Assembly: GCA_947627155.1 (NCBI GenBank)
Contig: CANQUX010000001.1
Location: 64,046 to 128,045, forward strand
Source of the DNA: an uncultured Alphaproteobacteria bacterium
GTDB taxonomy: Bacteria > Pseudomonadota > Alphaproteobacteria > CAAHEQ01 > UBA3637
Reading direction: 5' to 3'
Length of the DNA stretch: 64,000 nucleotides
Part shown: positions 1 through 63,900 of the stretch, one piece after another
Layout: every line of letters starts with the position of its first letter
Position numbering within the stretch: the stretch's first letter is position 1
Notes under the pieces: generated by a model
Database searches by the model: none
What the model saw: the letters and a program-made list of their open reading frames with translations, nothing else
Told to the model about the DNA's origin: nothing
Program-made: the position numbers and the translations under genes

Positions 1-671
1 CGCAATCGGCAGAACAAAAGCAATTGTTTGCTTATTCGATATACAGTTTACCCATCGCCGAACAAAATGCGTTAAAATGGTTAATGATTTTCCCGTTAGC
101 CATTTTAATTGTTGTTTTGTTGCGAAACGTTGTCGGATTGAAAACAATGGGTACTTTTACGCCCATGCTTATTTCAATGGCACTGATTGAAACGGGTTTT
201 TGGCCGGGTTTAACGGCTTTTGTGATTGTAACGGGTATCGGATTGATTATTCGTGCCGTGTTGTCGCGATTAAATTTGTTATTGGTGCCGAGAATTTCTG
301 CCGTTGTGATTTTTGTGATTTTCATTATTCAAATGTGCACGATTATCGGATATCGATTTGATTTTAAAGTGGCTTCCGCCGTTTTGTTTTTCCCGATTAT
401 CATTCTGGCGTGGATTATTGAACGCGCCTCGATTATTTGGGAGGAGGAGGGGTTAAAAAGTGCTTTAAATGAAGTTTTTTCCAGTGTTTTGGTTGCCGTT
501 ATCACTTATTTCGTGATTGTTAATCCCACCGTGCAACACATTATGTTTGCCTTTAATGAATTGAATTTGGTCATTTTATTTATTGTTATGTTGTTGGGAA
601 CTTATACCGGTTATCGATTAACGGAATTAAAGCGGTTTGCCCCGCTTGTCAGACATAAGGATAAAAAATGA
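1..671 (+). CDS. Polytopic membrane protein, 5'-truncated by the window edge. Likely the 7TM/transglutaminase-like partner of the downstream ATP-grasp gene.
   Basis: The ORF is open to position 3 with no in-frame stop upstream of the TTG at 24. It has at least 6 predicted TM helices. Its stop overlaps the next start (ATGA at 668), indicating translational coupling to a RimK-like ATP-grasp gene. Confidence 0.55.
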   Translation, partial: QSAEQKQLFAYSIYSLPIAEQNALKWLMIFPLAILIVVLLRNVVGLKTMGTFTPMLISMALIETGFWPGLTAFVIVTGIGLIIRAVLSRLNLLLVPRISAVVIFVIFIIQMCTIIGYRFDFKVASAVLFFPIIILAWIIERASIIWEEEGLKSALNEVFSSVLVAVITYFVIVNPTVQHIMFAFNELNLVILFIVMLLGTYTGYRLTELKRFAPLVRHKDKK

Positions 672-1615
672 GTTTTTTAGGATTCGTCAGCCCCGAAAAG
701 TTAAGAGAAGCCGGTGTTTTGAGTATGAATCGCCGCAATTACGAAGTGATTGCCCGACATAATCGCCGGCGCTTATATCCGTTGGTTGATGATAAGGTGA
801 AAACCAAACAATTGGCAAACGATATCGGTTTAACAACGCCGCATTTAATTGCTTCCGTCAGTGCGCAATATGAAGTGAAAAATTTTTTGAATCTTGTCAA
901 AAATTATAAAAGTTTTGTGATTAAACCGGCGCACGGCAGCGGCGGAAAAGGTGTTTTGGTTATTCAATCTTATACGCAAAATCATTTTCGATTGCCTTCC
1001 GGGCGGGTATTGAGATATCGCGAAGTTTATCAGCATATTTCCAATATTTTAAGCGGATTATACAGTTTGGGCGGGCGATATGATACCGCTTTGTTTGAAG
1101 AAATGGTTCATTTCAGTGATGTTTTTAAAAATTACAGTTATCAGGGTATTCCCGATGTGCGCCTTATTATTTATGAAGGGTACCCTGTTTTGGCAATGAT
1201 GCGTTTGGCCACAAAAGAATCGGCCGGTCGGGCTAATTTGCATCAGGGCGCCGTGGGTGTGGGCATTGATATCAAAACGGGCAGGGCAATCTCTGCCGTT
1301 CAACACAACAAACCTGTTCGGTTTCATCCGGATACGAAAGCTGATTTAATGCAACTGTCCGTTCCCTTTTGGAAAGAGCATTTGCTGATTGCCGCACAAG
1401 GATATGAAATGACGGGATTGGGATATTTGGGAGCCGATATTGTGTTGGATAAGAATAAAGGACCGATGGTGTTAGAATTAAATGCCCGTCCGGGACTGGC
1501 CATTCAAATAGCCAATCAGTGCGGATTGAGAAGCGTGTTAAAGCGTGTGGAAAAAGATTTTCCGCGCGGATTATCCTTTAAAGAAAGAGTTGAATATGTT
1601 TTATCAACCTATTGA
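668..1615 (+). CDS. Alpha-L-glutamate ligase-like (RimK-family) ATP-grasp protein.
   Basis: Carries ATP-grasp motifs (KPAHGSGGKGVLV, ELNARPGL). Paired with the upstream 7TM protein, as in the known 7TM-transglutaminase / RimK-like operon arrangement. Confidence 0.7.
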   Translation: MSFLGFVSPEKLREAGVLSMNRRNYEVIARHNRRRLYPLVDDKVKTKQLANDIGLTTPHLIASVSAQYEVKNFLNLVKNYKSFVIKPAHGSGGKGVLVIQSYTQNHFRLPSGRVLRYREVYQHISNILSGLYSLGGRYDTALFEEMVHFSDVFKNYSYQGIPDVRLIIYEGYPVLAMMRLATKESAGRANLHQGAVGVGIDIKTGRAISAVQHNKPVRFHPDTKADLMQLSVPFWKEHLLIAAQGYEMTGLGYLGADIVLDKNKGPMVLELNARPGLAIQIANQCGLRSVLKRVEKDFPRGLSFKERVEYVLSTY

Positions 1616-53594: not shown

Positions 53595-55007
53595 TCACTC
53601 ACATAAGGCGTAGTTGCCGTTGCGGTTGCGACCGTATTTGTCGACGATACCGCCCATGAGGTTAACGCGGTACGCGTTGCAGGAAGAATCGTACATATCG
53701 TACATCCATACCCAACAATTACCAAAATCATCGTACAAATCCTTTCTTATCTGACATATGCCTCCGGACGACACCTCGCCACACCCGATGCTTGCCCGCG
53801 TTGCTTGTTTCATTCCTAATGCCTCACAGAACCGCCCGGCGCTCCACCATGTCATATAACCATTATTCACACTCGGCTCGCCAAAAATAAATCCGCTTTT
53901 TGCACCTGCTTTTCCATCCTTTATATCTTTGCTCGCATTCCGGCATTCACTCTTACGAGTGTTATATCCTCCAAATTTATTAGGGTCAAATTCTTGGTCG
54001 TCACCACAATCCTTCCCATAATACATGTAGCAATACTCTCCCAGGCCGCAATCAGAATTTTTCTCGCATTCACCGACGCGCTCCTTATCACATCCGCCGT
54101 TTTCAAGTGATGCTTTCCATTCTTTGCTTGTGTCACTGCTACAAACGCATTTCCCATTCTCCGGTTTACTGCCTTCCGGACAGGTTGTGCATTTAGTGCC
54201 GTCCCAATATGGTGTAGCAGTACTGCATACACATTTTTCGCCATCTTCACTAAGCTCTGCCCCGGCCGGACAAGCGCACTTTTTGCCGGTCCATACTTTT
54301 CCGCCCGAACAACCCGCGCAACAGCCGCCGTTACATGTTTTCTCGTCTTCCGCACAGGTGCATTCGTTCCCATCGTCACTCCGCGTTGTGCCTTTCGGAC
54401 ATTCTTCCGGCACGGGGTCATCATCTTGCGGCTCATCGCCTTGTTCTTCCGGCGGCTCCGGATTATCGCTTCCGCCGCTCACACCGCCTATATCTTTGGT
54501 TGAAAAGGCGACCATTACTTCATTTTCTGTCTCAGAACAGAGATTTTCTGTTGTAGTATAGTCACCACCGTTAATCTCTAATGCGGCTGTATCATCCATG
54601 CTGTCTAATAACGTGGCTAACGGTTTGCAAACCCCGGCCGGTATACCCGATAATGTAAATGAATAGCCCTCTTCTCCCCCTTCTTCATCCGATATTATAA
54701 CCGGATAAGCTATCTCAACGGCATAACTTTCATTAAATTTTAAGTGCCCCTCCTCACCGTCATACGGCTCGCCCAACAATAATTCCACGCCACGCGCAAC
54801 TTTCATTTTCGCATCGGTGCGCATGAGATTGATTTCATTCGCAATTTGATTCGCCTGATATCGATTCATTGCCATTCTGTATCCGGCAATCCCGCCAATC
54901 GATATAACACCGATTATGGCCAAAACGCCCAGCATTTCAACCATACTACGCCCTTCTTGCGCTTGATTTTGAACTTGTTTTAATTGCTTTTTCTGTTGTT
55001 TTTTCAT
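53595..55007 (-). CDS. Pilin-like N-terminus fused to eukaryote-like cysteine-rich repeats. Possible C-type-lectin-like C-terminus.
   Basis: Charged leader then G-RSMVE-MLGVLAIIGVISIGGIAGY. A run of C-x-C-P-x-G...KC-x-C repeats (furin/EGF-like). The protein ends ...NCWVWMYD...YALCE. The gene is GC-rich relative to its surroundings. RBS GGAGG. Confidence 0.6.
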   Translation of the reverse strand: MKKQQKKQLKQVQNQAQEGRSMVEMLGVLAIIGVISIGGIAGYRMAMNRYQANQIANEINLMRTDAKMKVARGVELLLGEPYDGEEGHLKFNESYAVEIAYPVIISDEEGGEEGYSFTLSGIPAGVCKPLATLLDSMDDTAALEINGGDYTTTENLCSETENEVMVAFSTKDIGGVSGGSDNPEPPEEQGDEPQDDDPVPEECPKGTTRSDDGNECTCAEDEKTCNGGCCAGCSGGKVWTGKKCACPAGAELSEDGEKCVCSTATPYWDGTKCTTCPEGSKPENGKCVCSSDTSKEWKASLENGGCDKERVGECEKNSDCGLGEYCYMYYGKDCGDDQEFDPNKFGGYNTRKSECRNASKDIKDGKAGAKSGFIFGEPSVNNGYMTWWSAGRFCEALGMKQATRASIGCGEVSSGGICQIRKDLYDDFGNCWVWMYDMYDSSCNAYRVNLMGGIVDKYGRNRNGNYALCE

Positions 55008-55567: not shown

Positions 55568-56344
55568 ATGGAGAAAATGAAAATGTCGAATGAAATAGTA
55601 ACTGCCGTTCAACGAAATAATTTAGAAGCCGTTCAAAAGTTAATTAAACAAGGCGCTTCCGTTAATTTGGTGAATAAAGATGTTTCCTTGTTGCTTTTTG
55701 CTGTCGGAACAAAGAAAAATCCGCAAATTATACAAGAACTAATAAACGGCGGTGCCAATGTTAATCGCGCCAATGACAAGGGCTTGTCACCGTTAATTAT
55801 TGCTTCGGCAAGTCAGCAACCGAAAGTTGTTGAAATGTTATTAAATGCCGGTGCAAATGTTAATCAACCGGATATTCAGGGAACTACGCCCGTTATGTAT
55901 TCCGCCATGTGGGGTGATATTGTAACGACTCGTTTGTTAATCGGGGCCGGAGCTGATGTTAATCAAACGAATCATGAGGGACTGACGGCGCTTATGCGAA
56001 CCGTAGCGGAGGGACAAAAAGAAGTTGCCGAAACGCTTATTAAATCCGGCGCCGATGTGAATAAAGTTACCAATAACGGTTATTCCGCATTGATGTTTGC
56101 GGCATCGGAAGGACATACCGATACCGTTAAAGTGCTTCTGTCAGCCGGAGCTGATGTAAAACAGAAAAATAAAGAAGGTAAAACGGCTCTGGATATGGTT
56201 AATGATGCCATTAAAGAAAATCCTCAAGCCAAAGAAAAATTTATTGAAATTCAAAAGCTTTTAAACGGCGGATTGTGTAAAACATTATCCAATGCCCAAG
56301 AACCGACACAAACATCGGTGAGGAATAATTCAAACGAACGGTAA
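55568..56344 (+). CDS. Ankyrin repeat protein.
   Basis: Seven ANK repeats (GADVN/GANVN periodicity). Confidence 0.85.
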   Translation: MEKMKMSNEIVTAVQRNNLEAVQKLIKQGASVNLVNKDVSLLLFAVGTKKNPQIIQELINGGANVNRANDKGLSPLIIASASQQPKVVEMLLNAGANVNQPDIQGTTPVMYSAMWGDIVTTRLLIGAGADVNQTNHEGLTALMRTVAEGQKEVAETLIKSGADVNKVTNNGYSALMFAASEGHTDTVKVLLSAGADVKQKNKEGKTALDMVNDAIKENPQAKEKFIEIQKLLNGGLCKTLSNAQEPTQTSVRNNSNER

Positions 56345-60780: not shown

Positions 60781-60810
60781 TAAAGTCATTTGCCTGAAAA
60801 AGGGGAAAAA

Positions 60811-61251
60811 ATGAAAAAAACATTCCTTTGTTATCTGATTGTTTGCGGTATTATCGGCCCGGCAAATGCTAAATATTTAGGACAGTTATCGGCAAATCCT
60901 TATGCCGTCAATTCCACCTCAAATCCTGTCGGTCGCTATGGCAGTCCGTATTCGGCTGACAGTATCAACAATCCTTTCGGAGAATTCGGCAGTGAATATT
61001 CATCTTCATCGGCACATAATTCCTATTCTTACGGAAATGCCTCACTCAAACTTTATGATGCCGAAGGGAATTTCCGAGGTAATTTAAATGATAATCCGTA
61101 TGATCCGGATTCCATTGCTAATCCTTACGGTCGCTACGGCAGCCCTTATTCGGCTGACAGCATCAATAATCCCTACGGTGCCGGAAGTCCTTATCGCTAT
61201 GACAGTCCGAATAATCCGTACGGAGACGGCTGGGAAATTCGTTACGAATAA
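60811..61251 (+). CDS. Secreted repeat protein (NPYG / SPYSADSINNPYG repeats).
   Basis: Signal peptide. Four or more degenerate repeats. An imperfect 60-bp DNA repeat lies at 60921-60980 and 61121-61180. Confidence 0.5.
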   Translation: MKKTFLCYLIVCGIIGPANAKYLGQLSANPYAVNSTSNPVGRYGSPYSADSINNPFGEFGSEYSSSSAHNSYSYGNASLKLYDAEGNFRGNLNDNPYDPDSIANPYGRYGSPYSADSINNPYGAGSPYRYDSPNNPYGDGWEIRYE

Positions 61252-61273: not shown

Positions 61274-62554
61274 TTATAATTCAACGCTTTTTTGAACGGC
61301 CAGCAGAAAATCTTTTCCGCGTTCTTCAAAGTTTTTATATAAATTATAGCTCGGTGCGGCCGGTGATAATAACACAATACCGGTTTCGGGTGTAACGGCA
61401 AAAGCCTTTTGCACGGCATTTAACATATTTTCTTCATATGAAGCCGATAATCCGGCTTTTCGGGCTTCTTGATAAAGGCGTTTTCCGGTATCGGGCAGGG
61501 CAATAATAAACAGCTTTTCTTTTAATGGCAGGATATAACGAATCAATGTTTCATAATTTTGCCCGCGATCGAATCCGCCAGCAATAAGAGTGATATAAGG
61601 AAAATTTTCAAACGTTTTTAAGGCGGCAATCGTTGATTCGGGTGTTGTTGAAATACTGTCATCGATAAATTGAATATGACGATATGTTCCAAGATTCTGC
61701 AATCGATGGGGCAGTGGCCGAACATTTTGAAATCCTTGCCTTATTTTTTCCGGTTCGATTGATAAATTCAGAAGAGACAACAAACTTAATGCCGCACAGG
61801 CATTGACGGCATTATGTAATCCCGAAAGCGGTAAGGAATGAACAGGAATCACTTTTTTTGACGCATTATAAAAATAATTATCTTTGATATGCCATGTGGT
61901 GTTTGTGTTAAAATAGCGAATATTTGATAAATTTTTCAAATGTTTCATTATTTCTTCATTCGATCCGTTAACCGCCGCCTGATCGGAAAGTTTTATCAAT
62001 CGGCATTTATCATTGTAATAATTTTCATGCGTTTGGTGCCATTGCAAATGTTCGGGATATAAATTAAGTAAAACCGCAGCATTGCAACCGTATTGAAGTG
62101 AGGCACATTGATAGCTTGATAATTCCGCCACCACAAAATGTAAGTCATCGGAAAGTAAATCCAGTAACGGTTTACCGATATTTCCGCCCAAAGCGGTACA
62201 CGCATCATATTGTGAAAGAAGATGATAAATAATTGAAGAAGTTGTACTTTTCCCTTTGGTTCCCGTTACGCCGATAACTGTTGTCATCGGCTTTTTATTG
62301 GCTAAAAATAAATTGGTACCGGTCGTAAAAAGAATGCCTTGTTGTTTTGCTTTTTCAATTTCCGGCCGATAAATGCTGACGCCCGGGGAAGTAATAACAA
62401 CCTCACAATCGAAAAGGCAATTTAAACTTGAATCATCAAACAAAACAATTTTTGCATTCGGCACAAACCGTTGCAGGGCTTTTTGAGCAGACAAACCTTC
62501 ACGTCCTTGTCCCCAAATGCCGATTGTTTTATGTTGCAATGCTTCCCACTTCAT
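61274..62554 (-). CDS. murD: UDP-N-acetylmuramoylalanine--glutamate ligase (MurD family), located outside any dcw cluster.
   Basis: Mur ligase P-loop GVTGTKGKST and MurD-like N-terminus (IGIWGQGREG). 426 aa. Confidence 0.8.
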   Translation of the reverse strand: MKWEALQHKTIGIWGQGREGLSAQKALQRFVPNAKIVLFDDSSLNCLFDCEVVITSPGVSIYRPEIEKAKQQGILFTTGTNLFLANKKPMTTVIGVTGTKGKSTTSSIIYHLLSQYDACTALGGNIGKPLLDLLSDDLHFVVAELSSYQCASLQYGCNAAVLLNLYPEHLQWHQTHENYYNDKCRLIKLSDQAAVNGSNEEIMKHLKNLSNIRYFNTNTTWHIKDNYFYNASKKVIPVHSLPLSGLHNAVNACAALSLLSLLNLSIEPEKIRQGFQNVRPLPHRLQNLGTYRHIQFIDDSISTTPESTIAALKTFENFPYITLIAGGFDRGQNYETLIRYILPLKEKLFIIALPDTGKRLYQEARKAGLSASYEENMLNAVQKAFAVTPETGIVLLSPAAPSYNLYKNFEERGKDFLLAVQKSVEL

Positions 62555-63900
62555 ATTTTCAGACCCTCATGAAAAATATTCAACACAAGTGAAGCTGTTT
62601 CATCTGGTATTAAGTGAAAGGGGAGGGGTGTGAGATATTTTCTCAACAAATCTTCTTGTAATGATTTAATTTTTTCAGATAACTCTTTAACAATCAAATC
62701 ATTTTTCCACTCATCTTTTTGGGATAATATTTGAAGAGCCGTTCTTGATTCATCAATTTCCCCCACACATTCGAACGGTTTATGCCCTTGTAACCCCAGT
62801 AATTCTTCATAGCCGCCAAGCTGTGTTTCCTCATTTAAAAGATTGCTGCCGATAGAAGAAATTAAAGTTTCTTTCGGGATAAAGGGAGCTAATATCAAAA
62901 AAACAAAGCGACATTTATCACATGCCCCGCACCAAGCGGTTAATCTTTTCTTTTCATTTAAGCGAAAAGCTTTGTTGCAGCTGGTAAATACCAAAAAGTA
63001 GGGTTGGCAATAGTGAGCGAACAATTTAGCAATGGCCAATTCGCTTAACGGACGCAGCAATGAAAAATAACGAAAATCAGGCGTTACGGATTGTGTTAAC
63101 CGATAAAAATTTTCTTCAAACTCAAAAGATTTGCTGTATTGATGGTTAATCATCAATTTCCCTTGCATTAAATTACCGCTGTTTGCCGATCGTTCGCATG
63201 ATAAAGCAACATATCGATAGTCATATAAAACAGCAGCCCCCCAAAGCAGAAAAGCCAACATGCCCGTAATCGGCACATGTCCGTTGGTAACACCCGATTG
63301 ATTAAGCTCAATTAACTGCCGGTCAATTTGCCTGGTTATATTATATGAAGGCAAACCTGATATGTGCATACAATCGAGAATAGGGCGGGCATTTCCGACG
63401 GCGATTGTGGTTGCAGTTTCTTTTATTTTTTTCATTATTTCAATTGTTAAGCACGAATCTTTTCCGCCACCGACCGGCACAAGATATCTTTTTTGAAGTG
63501 TTACAAAAACGGGCTTTTCTTCTTTTTCCTCAAACGGGAAGCTGATTAAACCTTGTAAATTCAAATGATTGCGAACGGCAAATTCACCCAATCCGCTTTC
63601 ATAGAAACGATTGAAAAACAATGCTTCTGCTTTTGAAAGTGTTCCCGATTCAATGATGATTTCACACGGACAAAATGCTTTATAATAACTGATTCCGAAA
63701 GCAATGTGTGCCAAGAAAAAAATATGATTTAACGCTTGATTTTGAAGCTCATTTAATTGAAACGGCGCTTGCGGAAAAACAATTCTTTCCGTAAATGAGA
63801 GCCTTTTTTCCGGCAGATTCATTTCGTAGCAAAATGTTAATTCCCCTGTTTTTGAATTAAAAAAGTAATTTTTATAATAAAATCTCTTGCACAAAATCAT
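62551..63900 (-). CDS. PP-loop/QueC-like ATP pyrophosphatase-family protein, translationally coupled to murD. Candidate MurL-like epimerase.
   Basis: PP-loop-like GGGKDS and C-terminal CGACDKCR (CGxCxxC-R) zinc-motif as in QueC. About 140-aa N-terminal extension. ATGA overlap with murD. Confidence 0.45.
   Translation of the reverse strand: MILCKRFYYKNYFFNSKTGELTFCYEMNLPEKRLSFTERIVFPQAPFQLNELQNQALNHIFFLAHIAFGISYYKAFCPCEIIIESGTLSKAEALFFNRFYESGLGEFAVRNHLNLQGLISFPFEEKEEKPVFVTLQKRYLVPVGGGKDSCLTIEIMKKIKETATTIAVGNARPILDCMHISGLPSYNITRQIDRQLIELNQSGVTNGHVPITGMLAFLLWGAAVLYDYRYVALSCERSANSGNLMQGKLMINHQYSKSFEFEENFYRLTQSVTPDFRYFSLLRPLSELAIAKLFAHYCQPYFLVFTSCNKAFRLNEKKRLTAWCGACDKCRFVFLILAPFIPKETLISSIGSNLLNEETQLGGYEELLGLQGHKPFECVGEIDESRTALQILSQKDEWKNDLIVKELSEKIKSLQEDLLRKYLTPLPFHLIPDETASLVLNIFHEGLKI

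What the first reader, a model, noticed from the sequence alone, without database searches (positions are those of the whole stretch)
61274..63900. Stand-alone murD translationally coupled to a PP-loop/QueC-like ATPase: candidate MurD2/MurL-type D-Glu pathway
A MurD-family ligase (426 aa) is encoded away from any mraY/ftsW/murG (dcw) context. Its start overlaps (ATGA) the stop of a 449-aa protein carrying a PP-loop-like GGGKDS and a QueC-like CGxCxxC-R zinc motif.

An ATP-dependent, adenylating epimerase, MurL (EC 5.1.1.23), is known to be co-encoded with a MurD paralogue (MurD2). In that pathway MurD2 adds L-Glu, and MurL then epimerises UDP-MurNAc-L-Ala-L-Glu to the D-Glu form, bypassing glutamate racemase.

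The gene pairing, the sizes and the adenylation-type fold fit that scheme. I cannot confirm from memory that MurL belongs to the PP-loop/QueC-like superfamily, so this remains a hypothesis.
Basis: inference. Interest (0 to 1): 0.6.

Follow-up and report, generated by a model that had tools for sequence, protein, structure and literature searches.

The report
MurL–MurD2 alternative D-glutamate cell-wall operon
These two overlapping genes are a new example, in an uncultured gut alphaproteobacterium, of the known MurD2/MurL route, which adds L-glutamate to the cell-wall precursor and then flips it to D-glutamate using ATP; the flipping enzyme is predicted to have a QueC-like ATP-using core.

Summary

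**Genes.** Window 62551-63900(-) encodes a 449-aa protein. Window 61274-62554(-) encodes a 426-aa Mur ligase. They overlap by ATGA.

**The 449-aa protein is a MurL homologue.**
- It matches NCBIfam NF041275 (MurL) over its full length at E 9e-128. The score is below the Xanthomonadales-specific cutoff.
- It carries Pfam MurL_N and MurL_epimerase_C.
- It is 40.6% identical to the annotated Xanthomonas sacchari murL.

**The ligase is of MurD2 type, not canonical MurD.**
- At the published stereospecificity positions it has E168, R330, P401 and Y403, plus I301 at the E. coli K319 position.
- Nearly all of 74 MurL-linked MurDs share this pattern. None of 13 canonical MurDs does.
- It scores 448 bits against a MurL-linked profile and 284 bits against a canonical profile.

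**Linkage.** In 73 of 80 genomes a MurD-type ligase gene lies immediately downstream of murL. Fused proteins also exist.

**Fold.** A confident AlphaFold model of MurL (pLDDT 93.8) matches QueC, QatC, Cap9 and TtuA. The core is therefore a PP-loop fold. It carries QueC's CGxCxxC cysteine motif, which fits the published ATP-to-AMP chemistry.

**Limits.** No murI or dcw genes lie in about 84 kb. Whether the genome lacks murI cannot be tested with these tools.

**Verdict.** New member of a known system.

The parts
62551..63900 (-). [quoted passage not shown] It has an N-terminal MurL_N domain (~1-125), a QueC-like PP-loop core (~136-340) and a C-terminal helical region.
   Evidence: ORF. NF041275, E 9e-128. 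Pfam MurL_N and MurL_epimerase_C. AF2 model pLDDT 93.8 and Foldseek hits to QueC/QatC/Cap9/TtuA. 40.6% identity to X. sacchari murL.
61274..62554 (-). [quoted passage not shown]
   Evidence: ORF. TIGR01087 and Mur_ligase_M/C. MurD2 determinants. Profile score 448 bits (MurL-linked) vs 284 bits (canonical).
62551..62554 (-). ATGA overlap of the murL stop and the murD2 start (translational coupling). A GAGGG SD-like element lies at 62564-62568.
   Evidence: Sequence read. The median projected overlap in 73 related loci is -14 nt.
63454..63471 (-). PP-loop-type motif GGGKDS (MurL residues 144-149), the predicted pyrophosphate-binding loop for ATP.
   Evidence: Invariant in 56 of 56 diverse homologues. 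It is the only stretch that hhalign aligns to the E. coli QueC SGGQDS motif. The SxGxDS role in QueC-family enzymes is described in 10.1101/2025.04.06.647259.
62911..62979 (-). Cys4 motif C308-x15-C324-G-A-C327-D-K-C330, the predicted structural metal (Zn) site.
   Evidence: Conserved in 55-56 of 56 sequences. Same CGxCxxC pattern as E. coli QueC C197-G-H-C200-A-A-C203, preceded by C188. A structural Zn site in QueC-like Cap9 is reported.
62758..62781 (-). MurL-specific motif KPFECVGE (residues 374-381) with invariant C378, a candidate acid/base for alpha-proton exchange (inferred).
   Evidence: P375 and C378 are invariant; K374, E377 and G380 are conserved in at least 90%. The region lies beyond the ~220-240 columns aligned to QueC in the fold search; E. 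coli QueC is only 231 aa.
62051..62053 (-). MurD2 determinant E168 (E. coli MurD D182; X. oryzae MurD2 E197).
   Evidence: Alignments. E in 72 of 74 MurL-linked MurDs and in 0 of 13 canonical ones. Mutagenesis reported in PMC8788868.
61565..61567 (-). MurD2 determinant R330 (E. coli K348; X. oryzae R358).
   Evidence: R in 72 of 74 MurL-linked MurDs; canonical K in 11 of 13. PMC8788868.
61652..61654 (-). I301 at the E. coli MurD K319 position.
   Evidence: I in 74 of 74 MurL-linked MurDs; K in 12 of 13 canonical ones. The K319T mutation lets E. coli MurD accept L-Glu (PMC8788868).
61346..61354 (-). P401-S402-Y403 (E. coli A414-S415-L416; X. oryzae P433/F435).
   Evidence: P in 72 of 74 MurL-linked MurDs and never in 13 canonical ones. 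The third position is F (45) or Y (28) in linked MurDs.

Best explanation
The two genes form a self-contained bicistronic operon for the alternative early step of peptidoglycan synthesis that was discovered in Xanthomonas oryzae.

1. **MurD2** (61274-62554) ligates L-glutamate, not D-glutamate, to UDP-MurNAc-L-Ala at the cost of ATP.

My inference from the fold is that MurL does this with a QueC-like PP-loop active site. The GGGKDS loop holds the pyrophosphate of ATP, and the alpha-carboxylate of the terminal Glu attacks the alpha-phosphate to give an acyl-adenylate. This acidifies the C-alpha proton, possibly through a transient oxazolone formed with the Ala carbonyl. A MurL-specific conserved residue then exchanges the proton on the opposite face; the candidates are C378, H208 and H253. 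Hydrolysis releases the D-product and AMP.

The four cysteines C308, C324, C327 and C330 probably hold a structural zinc ion, as in QueC.

**Shown here:** gene anatomy, family membership, the MurD2 residue signature, conserved linkage and fusion, and the predicted fold.
**Taken from the literature:** the reactions themselves.
**Inferred:** the roles of individual residues, the oxazolone intermediate, and the idea that this organism depends on the pathway.
For: - **Anatomy.** ORFs and the ATGA overlap.
- **MurL homology.** NF041275, E 9e-128, full length. Pfam MurL_N and MurL_epimerase_C. 40.6% identity to the annotated X. sacchari murL, which has the same gene order.
- **Conserved residues.** All family-invariant residues are present.
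- **MurD2 signature.** E168, I301, R330, P401 and Y403 against canonical D, K, K, A. X. oryzae E197 and R358, which correspond to window E168 and R330, are the experimentally specificity-switching positions (PMC8788868).
- **Profile test.** 448 bits against the MurL-linked profile versus 284 bits against the canonical one. Leave-one-out controls separate cleanly.
- **Tree.** The neighbour-joining tree places all MurL-linked MurDs apart from 12 canonical ones.
- **Linkage.** MurD lies immediately downstream in 73 of 80 loci and is fused in 2. 14 of the best 150 cluster representatives are MurL-MurD fusions, in both orders.
- **Fold.** AF2 pLDDT 93.8, pTM 0.93. Foldseek returns QatC, QueC, TtuA, Cap9, MnmA, GMP synthetase and argininosuccinate synthase.
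- **Chemistry.** QueC-family enzymes activate a carboxylate at the ATP alpha-phosphate, and have a PPi-binding SxGxDS motif and a structural Zn. MurL is reported to make AMP.
Against: - No biochemical data exist for this protein or any close relative.
- The MurL score (426 bits) is below the NCBIfam equivalog cutoff of 700. That cutoff is tuned to Xanthomonadales.
- By its NCBIfam score the ligase passes as an ordinary murD (290 bits, cutoff 212).
- R at the 348 position also occurs in some true D-Glu ligases (Bacillus and Listeria; Streptococcus).
- Bootstrap support for the MurD2/MurD split is only 52 of 100 in a simple neighbour-joining tree.
- Absence of murI or dat, and of a dcw murD, from the genome is unknown.
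- QueC homology is visible only at the fold level: hhalign probability is 2.9% and there is no PF06508 hit.
- The metal site and the catalytic base are predictions. The model coordinates could not be inspected.
Confidence: 0.88

Rival explanations
1. The pair is a genuine MurD2/MurL module but is auxiliary. On this reading the genome also encodes glutamate racemase (or a D-amino-acid aminotransferase) and a canonical murD in the dcw cluster, so the operon is redundant or conditionally used.
For: Only about 84 kb of the genome could be examined. Nothing shown here excludes murI elsewhere.
Against: The published survey says MurD2/MurL carriers lack D-Glu-forming genes (PMC8788868). The pair is conserved in the closest relatives, which are gut alphaproteobacterial MAGs at 47-78% identity, suggesting a core function.
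Confidence: 0.12
2. The MurL homologue uses its QueC-like adenylating site for different chemistry on the muropeptide. For example, it could amidate the Glu alpha-carboxylate to iso-glutamine (or form a nitrile) rather than epimerise it, and the ligase could be a normal D-Glu MurD.
For: QueC-family enzymes normally turn an adenylated carboxylate into an amide or nitrile, or conjugate it to an amine. The fold match is to these enzymes.
Against: The protein shares full-length homology and every invariant residue with the lineage whose members were shown to epimerise (PMC8788868). The partner ligase carries the L-Glu-type E/R/P/I signature rather than the D-Glu type. That makes sense only if an epimerase follows.
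Confidence: 0.04
3. The adjacency is coincidental: an ordinary MurD next to an unrelated PP-loop enzyme such as QueC, TtcA or another tRNA-modifying ATPase.
For: There is a weak TtcA hit confined to the PP-loop (E 0.0037). TIGR01087 murD scores above its cutoff.
Against: There is no QueC or TtcA family-level match. The match to MurL is full-length. Linkage is conserved in 78 of 80 loci, and fusions exist.
Confidence: 0.01

Closest known systems
MurL / MurD2 of Xanthomonas oryzae (XOO_1319/XOO_1320; Feng et al. 2017, reviewed in PMC8788868 and PMC5808125). EC 5.1.1.23 and EC 6.3.2.53 are quoted from my own knowledge.
   Same: - Same two-gene module and the same order (murL then murD2), with overlapping reading frames. 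This is also seen in the annotated X. sacchari locus.
- Full-length homology of both proteins.
- The same E/R/P/aromatic determinants in the ligase.
   Different: - The host is an uncultured, low-GC (~40%) gut alphaproteobacterium, not one of the listed genera.
- Identity is only 40.6% (MurL) and 31% (MurD2).
- MurL scores below the NCBIfam equivalog cutoff.
- Y replaces F at the 416/435 position.
- MurD2 is about 50 aa shorter than in Xanthomonas.
[quoted passage not shown]
   Same: - Predicted Rossmann-like PP-loop fold (TM 0.62-0.68 to QueC structures).
- A pyrophosphate-loop motif (GGGKDS against SGGQDS).
- An identical CGxCxxC cysteine pattern preceded by a fourth Cys.
- ATP-to-AMP carboxylate-activation chemistry.
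   Different: - No sequence-family membership.
- MurL has an extra ~130-aa N-terminal domain and a ~110-aa C-terminal region with its own invariant Cys378.
- The substrate is a UDP-muramoyl dipeptide and the outcome is stereoinversion, not amide or nitrile formation.
[quoted passage not shown]
   Same: - Three-domain Mur ligase.
- All catalytic residues are conserved: K115, N138, E157, H183, K198, R302, D317, T321, S415 and F422 in E. coli numbering.
- It scores above the TIGR01087 cutoff.
   Different: - D182E, K319I, K348R and A414P substitutions.
- Not in a dcw cluster.
- Coupled to murL.
- 164 bits better on the MurL-linked profile.
Glutamate racemase MurI
   Same: Both supply the D-Glu stereocentre of peptidoglycan.
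   Different: MurI is a cofactor-independent, reversible two-cysteine racemase acting on free glutamate (own knowledge). MurL acts on the nucleotide-dipeptide, consumes ATP and is unidirectional. The two are unrelated in sequence. No MurI homologue is found in the window or in L001 by tblastn, and no Asp/Glu racemase family is listed among the genes of the 10 kb upstream.

Membership tests
[quoted passage not shown] | Full-length sequence homology to the characterised MurL lineage | tested here: met
   NF041275, E 9e-128, 426.5 bits, residues 5-436 against model positions 8-440 of 447. 40.6% identity over 409 aa to the PGAP-annotated X. sacchari murL.
[quoted passage not shown] | Score at or above the curated NCBIfam equivalog cutoff (700 bits) | tested here: not met
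   426.5 bits is below 700. The model is named for and tuned to Xanthomonadales. Relatives from other classes are left as 'hypothetical' or 'endonuclease domain-containing'.
[quoted passage not shown] | Pfam architecture MurL_N (PF26299) plus MurL_epimerase_C (PF26298) | tested here: met
   Precomputed hits for this exact protein and for all 120 listed homologues. The local Pfam copy lacks these models.
[quoted passage not shown] | Family-invariant residues present (GGGKDS, H208, E236, NHQ 252-254, K257, C308/C324/C327/C330, C378, E384) | tested here: met
   Alignment A3 of 56 diverse members.
[quoted passage not shown] | Encoded next to, and co-oriented with, a MurD2-type ligase | tested here: met
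   ATGA overlap in the window. The same arrangement occurs in 73 of 80 loci, and the genes are fused in 2.
[quoted passage not shown] | ATP/Mg-dependent, unidirectional L-to-D epimerisation with AMP release | not testable with these tools
   Biochemistry is known only for the X. oryzae, Micromonospora and Salinispora enzymes.
MurL/MurD2 pathway | Genome lacks murI and D-amino-acid aminotransferase, and has no other murD | not testable with these tools
   Partial evidence only. tblastn finds no murI or dcw homologue in the window or in L001, and no Mur ligase, MraY, FtsW or racemase family is listed for the genes of the 10 kb upstream in L103.
[quoted passage not shown] | Mur ligase fold with the catalytic residues intact | tested here: met
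   Mur_ligase_M/C and TIGR01087. K102, N125, E144, H169, K183, R284, D299, T303, S402 and F409 align to the E. coli catalytic set.
[quoted passage not shown] | Glu at X. oryzae position 197 and Arg at 358 (the residues whose double mutation converts MurD2 to a D-Glu ligase) | tested here: met
   E168 and R330. The mapping was validated on X. sacchari MurD2, which has E206 and R367. Literature.
[quoted passage not shown] | Pro433 and Phe435 equivalents | tested here: met
   P401 is present. Y403 replaces F; Y occurs in 28 of 74 MurL-linked MurDs.
[quoted passage not shown] | Groups with MurL-linked ligases rather than canonical MurD | tested here: met
   448.2 against 284.1 bits on independent profiles. 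The neighbour-joining split is present with bootstrap 52 of 100. 189 bits to X. sacchari MurD2 against 117 bits to E. coli MurD.
[quoted passage not shown] | Prefers L-Glu over D-Glu in vitro | not testable with these tools
   An enzyme assay is needed.
QueC family (PF06508) | Sequence match to the family model | tested here: not met
   No Pfam hit at E <= 0.1. hhalign against E. coli QueC aligns only 34 columns, with probability 2.9%.
QueC family (PF06508) | PP-loop Rossmann-like fold with a C-terminal Cys4 (CGxCxxC) site | tested here: met
   Foldseek probability 1.0 and TMt 0.62-0.68 to 2pg3 and 3bl5. Motif comparison. The result is that MurL works like QueC but is not a family member.
Canonical MurD (TIGR01087) | Asp182, Lys319, Lys348 and Ala414 (E. 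coli numbering) around the D-Glu site | tested here: not met
   The window has E, I, R and P, although the TIGR01087 score exceeds its cutoff.

The most novel reading that the evidence does not exclude
MurL has been described in the literature as lacking any known domain and as mechanistically unexplained. The novel reading is that it is a repurposed QueC-type PP-loop adenylating enzyme with three features:
- a QueC-like Cys4 metal site;
- a MurL-specific invariant cysteine (C378) that could serve as the stereoinverting acid/base;
- an added N-terminal domain.

On the same reading, the MurD2/MurL route is not confined to 'relatively few genera'. It is widespread: at least 592 GTDB species, about 2,600 clusters at 50% identity, gut Alphaproteobacteria, Candidate Phyla Radiation lineages and Sericytochromatia. 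Natural MurL-MurD2 fusions exist, and Ile at the MurD K319 position is a universal marker of the L-Glu ligases.
Probability: 0.55. Interest if true: 0.5.

Novelty: new member of a known kind. Interest (0 to 1): 0.35.

Why it matters
**Annotation.** Standard pipelines would name the ligase a D-glutamate ligase and leave the epimerase as hypothetical. Close homologues are labelled 'hypothetical' or 'endonuclease domain-containing'. As a result, the D-Glu supply of this gut alphaproteobacterial lineage would be misread.

**Distribution.** The MurD2/MurL route has been promoted as a narrow-spectrum antibiotic target on the basis that few genera use it (PMC8788868). The homologue counts and taxonomic spread found here suggest the target range is much wider. 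It includes commensal gut Alphaproteobacteria and CPR bacteria.

**Mechanism.** The QueC-like fold, the conserved Cys4 site and invariant Cys378 give concrete, testable residues for the only known ATP-consuming amino-acid epimerase.

Tried and rejected
- **Local Pfam scan of MurL.** No hit. The MurL models are newer than the local copy.
- **PDB sequence search with MurL.** Nothing significant.
- **hhalign of the MurL alignment against E. coli QueC.** Only the PP-loop aligns, with probability 2.9%. Homology is therefore claimed at the fold level only.
- **Separate model of the N-terminal domain** (pLDDT 92.8). It gave only weak RNase H-, NurA- and RuvC-like matches (E >= 0.016, TM ~0.35-0.42). 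No fold assignment is made. This may explain NCBI's 'endonuclease domain' label.
- **Promoter and terminator scan.** Counts equal the shuffled expectation, so it is uninformative.
- **Search for murI and dcw genes.** tblastn found none in the window or L001, and no such family is listed for the upstream 10 kb. This cannot be extended to the genome.
- **Neighbour-joining tree.** The expected split is present, but bootstrap support is only 52 of 100. The stand-alone Pusillibacter murD behaves as a rogue taxon. The profile test and the residue signature are therefore given more weight.
- **'Stand-alone location' as evidence.** Rejected as diagnostic, because the canonical murD genes of Leptospira and Pusillibacter are also outside dcw.
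- **Literature searches linking MurL with QueC or PP-loop.** No paper was found in the held library. Subscription journals are not covered.
Full report
**1. Observation**

The region holds two ORFs on the minus strand: 62551..63900 (449 aa) and 61274..62554 (426 aa). The junction reads ...ggtctgaaaatATGAagtgg. The downstream ATG (62554-62552) therefore overlaps the upstream TGA (62553-62551). A GAGGG element lies 9 nt upstream of that ATG.

The pair is bounded on both sides. The upstream neighbour is a divergent Sel1-repeat gene, 69 bp away. The downstream neighbour is a convergent small secreted-protein gene, 22 bp away. It is thus a self-contained two-gene unit. GC content is about 0.37-0.40, like the rest of the window, so there is no sign of recent import.

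**2. What the 449-aa protein is**

- NCBIfam gives one strong hit, NF041275 'MurL_Xanthmoales'. This is UDP-N-acetyl-alpha-D-muramoyl-L-alanyl-L-glutamate epimerase. The hit has E 9e-128 and 426.5 bits, aligning residues 5-436 to model positions 8-440 of 447. It is below the curated equivalog cutoff of 700 bits.
- The local Pfam copy gives nothing. The precomputed Pfam annotation of exactly this protein lists PF26299 MurL_N and PF26298 MurL_epimerase_C, and so do all 120 listed homologues.
- An annotated reference turned up in the plasmid collection. In Xanthomonas sacchari, PGAP names the homologue murL. The next gene, overlapping by 20 nt, is 'murD'. The window protein is 40.6% identical to that MurL over 409 residues.
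- The family is large. There were 7,850 hits at E <= 1e-5 among the 8,000 scored candidates. There are 2,606 representatives of 50%-identity clusters at E <= 1e-3, of which 1,152 are at E <= 1e-30.

**3. What the 426-aa protein is**

It is a Mur ligase of the MurD family (TIGR01087 290 bits; Mur_ligase_M and Mur_ligase_C). Aligned to E. coli MurD, the catalytic residues are all conserved: K115, N138, E157, H183, K198, R302, D317, T321, S415 and F422.

The review of the Dairi group's work (PMC8788868) reports four positions that differ between the two enzymes. X. oryzae MurD2 has E197, R358, P433 and F435 where E. coli MurD has D182, K348, A414 and L416. The MurD2 double mutant E197D/R358K switches fully to D-Glu. 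The E. coli mutant K319T begins to accept L-Glu.

The window protein has E168, R330, P401 and Y403 at those positions, and I301 at the K319 position. The mapping was checked on X. sacchari MurD2, which has E206, I339, R367, P443 and F445. That is offset by 9-10 residues from the X. oryzae numbering.

To test whether this pattern is diagnostic, I compared two sets:
- 74 MurD ORFs that lie next to murL in genome loci;
- 13 canonical MurDs: E. coli plus 12 diverse bacteria, several shown to lie in mraY-murD-ftsW context.

| E. coli position | MurL-linked MurD (n=74) | Canonical MurD (n=13) |
|---|---|---|
| 182 | E 72 | D 10, A 2, N 1 |
| 319 | I 74 | K 12, I 1 |
| 348 | R 72 | K 11, R 2 |
| 414 | P 72 | A 10, T 1, V 1, S 1 |

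Three further tests agree.
- **Profile test.** The MurL-linked profile was built without the window protein or its ten closest relatives. It scores the window protein at 448.2 bits, against 284.1 bits for the canonical profile. Leave-one-out controls from both classes each prefer their own class by 71-389 bits.
- **Tree.** A neighbour-joining tree contains the split between 12 canonical MurDs and everything MurL-linked. Bootstrap support is only 52 of 100, and the Pusillibacter sequence floats.
- **Pairwise scores.** The window protein scores 189 bits against X. sacchari MurD2 and 117 bits against E. coli MurD. X. sacchari MurD2 scores 218 bits against the window protein but only 118 bits against E. 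coli MurD, although both are Gammaproteobacteria.

**4. Linkage**

Among the best 80:
- a MurD-type ORF begins within -56 to +135 nt of the murL stop, on the same strand, in 73 (median -14 nt);
- the gap is larger in 3 (193, 485 and 1,277 nt);
- the two genes are one fused ORF in 2, both Candidatus Peribacteria;
- the contig ends too soon in 2.

Fourteen of the best 150 cluster representatives are MurL-MurD fusions of 799-914 aa. Thirteen have MurL at the N-terminus and one has the reverse order. This is strong evidence, of the 'Rosetta stone' gene-fusion kind, that the two proteins act together.

**5. Context and host**

The exact protein is found on a 97,972-bp ENA metagenome contig and on contigs from three sequencing runs. 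The nearest genome relatives are uncultured Alphaproteobacteria MAGs whose isolate names suggest rabbit, horse, rumen and human-gut samples, at 47-78% identity.

More distant hits include:
- Emcibacter, Stellaceae and Acetobacteraceae;
- the expected Lysobacterales (Rhodanobacter, Stenotrophomonas, Dyella, Pseudoxanthomonas, Lysobacter);
- Micavibrio and Sericytochromatia;
- CPR lineages (Peribacteria, Gracilibacteria, Patescibacteria).

The window itself is ordinary chromosome. It encodes pyruvate:ferredoxin oxidoreductase, tRNA synthetases, iPGM, HflX, TolC, Der and BamB. tblastn with E. coli MraZ, RsmH, FtsL, FtsI, MurE, MurF, MraY, MurD, FtsW, MurG, MurC, DdlB, FtsQ, FtsA, FtsZ and MurI finds only this murD in the window and in L001, which adds 10 kb beyond the window end. 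The precomputed Pfam families of the genes in the 10 kb before the window start include no Mur ligase, MraY, FtsW or racemase. Whether murI is absent from the whole genome cannot be decided here.

**6. How MurL probably works**

The literature states that MurL needs ATP and Mg, makes AMP, runs only from L to D, and 'lacks known conserved domains'.

An AlphaFold2 model built on 59 homologues is confident (pLDDT 93.8, pTM 0.93). Foldseek against the PDB returns these matches:
- QatC of the QatABCD defence system (E 5e-5);
- QueC (2pg3 and 3bl5; probability 1.0, TM 0.62-0.68 normalised to QueC);
- TtuA and Cap9;
- MnmA, GMP synthetase, argininosuccinate synthase and NMN synthetase.

All of these except QatC, whose entry title does not say so, are PP-loop ATP pyrophosphatases (own knowledge). 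At the sequence level only the PP-loop aligns to E. coli QueC, so this is fold-level homology.

The motif comparison is striking. E. coli QueC has SGGQDS and C188...C197-G-H-C200-A-A-C203. MurL has GGGKDS and C308...C324-G-A-C327-D-K-C330. All of these MurL positions are conserved in 55-56 of 56 sequences.

QueC-family enzymes activate a carboxylate on the alpha-phosphate of ATP, bind pyrophosphate with the SxGxDS loop, and carry a structural zinc (10.1101/2025.04.06.647259).

From this I infer the following mechanism. MurL adenylates the alpha-carboxylate of the terminal L-Glu and releases PPi. Activation acidifies the C-alpha proton. An N-acyl amino-acyl adenylate could also cyclise to an oxazolone, which is the classic racemisation route of activated peptides (own knowledge). 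A MurL-specific residue then exchanges the proton. Hydrolysis gives the D-product and AMP. Stereoselective adenylation of the L-form alone would explain why the reaction is unidirectional.

Candidate catalytic residues are the invariant C378 in KPFECVGE (which lies beyond the region that aligns to QueC in the fold search), H208, N252-H253-Q254, K257, E236 and E384.

The ~130-residue N-terminal domain was modelled separately (pLDDT 92.8). It gives only weak RNase H-like matches. Its role is unknown; binding of the UDP-MurNAc moiety is a guess.

**7. Comparison with what is known, and novelty**

This is the MurD2/MurL system of Feng et al. 2017, as reviewed. NCBIfam and Pfam already hold models for MurL. 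The window adds a new member from an uncultured gut alphaproteobacterium.

Its MurL would fall below NCBI's naming cutoff. Its MurD2 would be named a D-glutamate ligase, as PGAP does even for X. sacchari.

Four family-level observations made on the way may be new. None was found in the searchable literature:
- the QueC-like fold with its Cys4 motif;
- Ile at the K319 position as a universal mark of MurL-linked ligases;
- natural fusions of the two proteins;
- a taxonomic spread far beyond the 'relatively few genera' stated in PMC8788868.

**8. Verdict**

Confidence that this is a functional MurD2/MurL pair is 0.88. The novelty class is a new member of a known kind. Interest is 0.35.

Noticed in passing
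L102 3959-5359 (Pseudonocardia alni plasmid pPaSha1); also hits H33 and H34: Three Pseudonocardia plasmids carry a lone MurL-like gene (32-34% identity, annotated hypothetical). L102, the only one fetched, shows no adjacent Mur ligase; its neighbours are a WD40 protein and an HTH protein. It may be a MurL paralogue acting on a different substrate.
   Followed up: partly
P0121, P0125, P0137, P0154, P0162, P0166, P0194, P0207, P0231, P0232, P0236, P0241, P0261, P0244; L039 7971-10076; L079 7983-10364: Natural single-chain MurL-MurD fusions occur in both domain orders, including in Candidatus Peribacteria genomes. They suggest physical coupling or channelling between the two enzymes.
   Followed up: partly
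L097 2471-3847 (Pusillibacter faecalis pMM59_01): A stand-alone murD, not in a dcw cluster, has Ile at the E. coli K319 position, with N182, K348 and T414. It scores as canonical (360 against 315 bits) but sits on the MurD2 side of the neighbour-joining tree. No MurL was found on that replicon.
   Followed up: partly
window 53595-55007 (-): A 470-aa Cys-rich, acidic protein has a pilin-like hydrophobic N-terminus (…GRSMVEMLGVLAIIGVISIGG…) and no Pfam match.
   Followed up: no
window 60790-61251 (+): A 153-aa predicted secreted protein is built of NPYG / GSPYSADSINNP-type repeats and has no Pfam match. It lies convergent to murD2 with only 22 bp between the stop codons.
   Followed up: no
window 24-1615 and the upstream flank, L103 7858-10948: A three-gene set: a RimB-like protein, a 7TM inactive-transglutaminase protein and an ATP-grasp_ST ligase. 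This looks like a peptide-modification triad.
   Followed up: no
P0066, P0082 (homologues); MurL residues 1-130 = window 63511-63900 (-): NCBI names some MurL homologues 'endonuclease domain-containing protein'. The separately modelled N-terminal domain gives only weak RNase H-, NurA- and RuvC-like fold matches (E >= 0.016).
   Followed up: yes
L014 (CAVDQP010000029.1, labelled Holdemanella biformis): A contig assigned to a Firmicute carries an alphaproteobacterial-type murL-murD2 pair (51% and 42% identity to the window). This is probably bin contamination.
   Followed up: no
window 55568-56344 (+); L001 3373-5853 and 9230-9931: Ankyrin-repeat and Sel1-repeat proteins flank the operon. Such eukaryote-like repeat proteins are typical of host-associated bacteria (own knowledge).
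   Followed up: no
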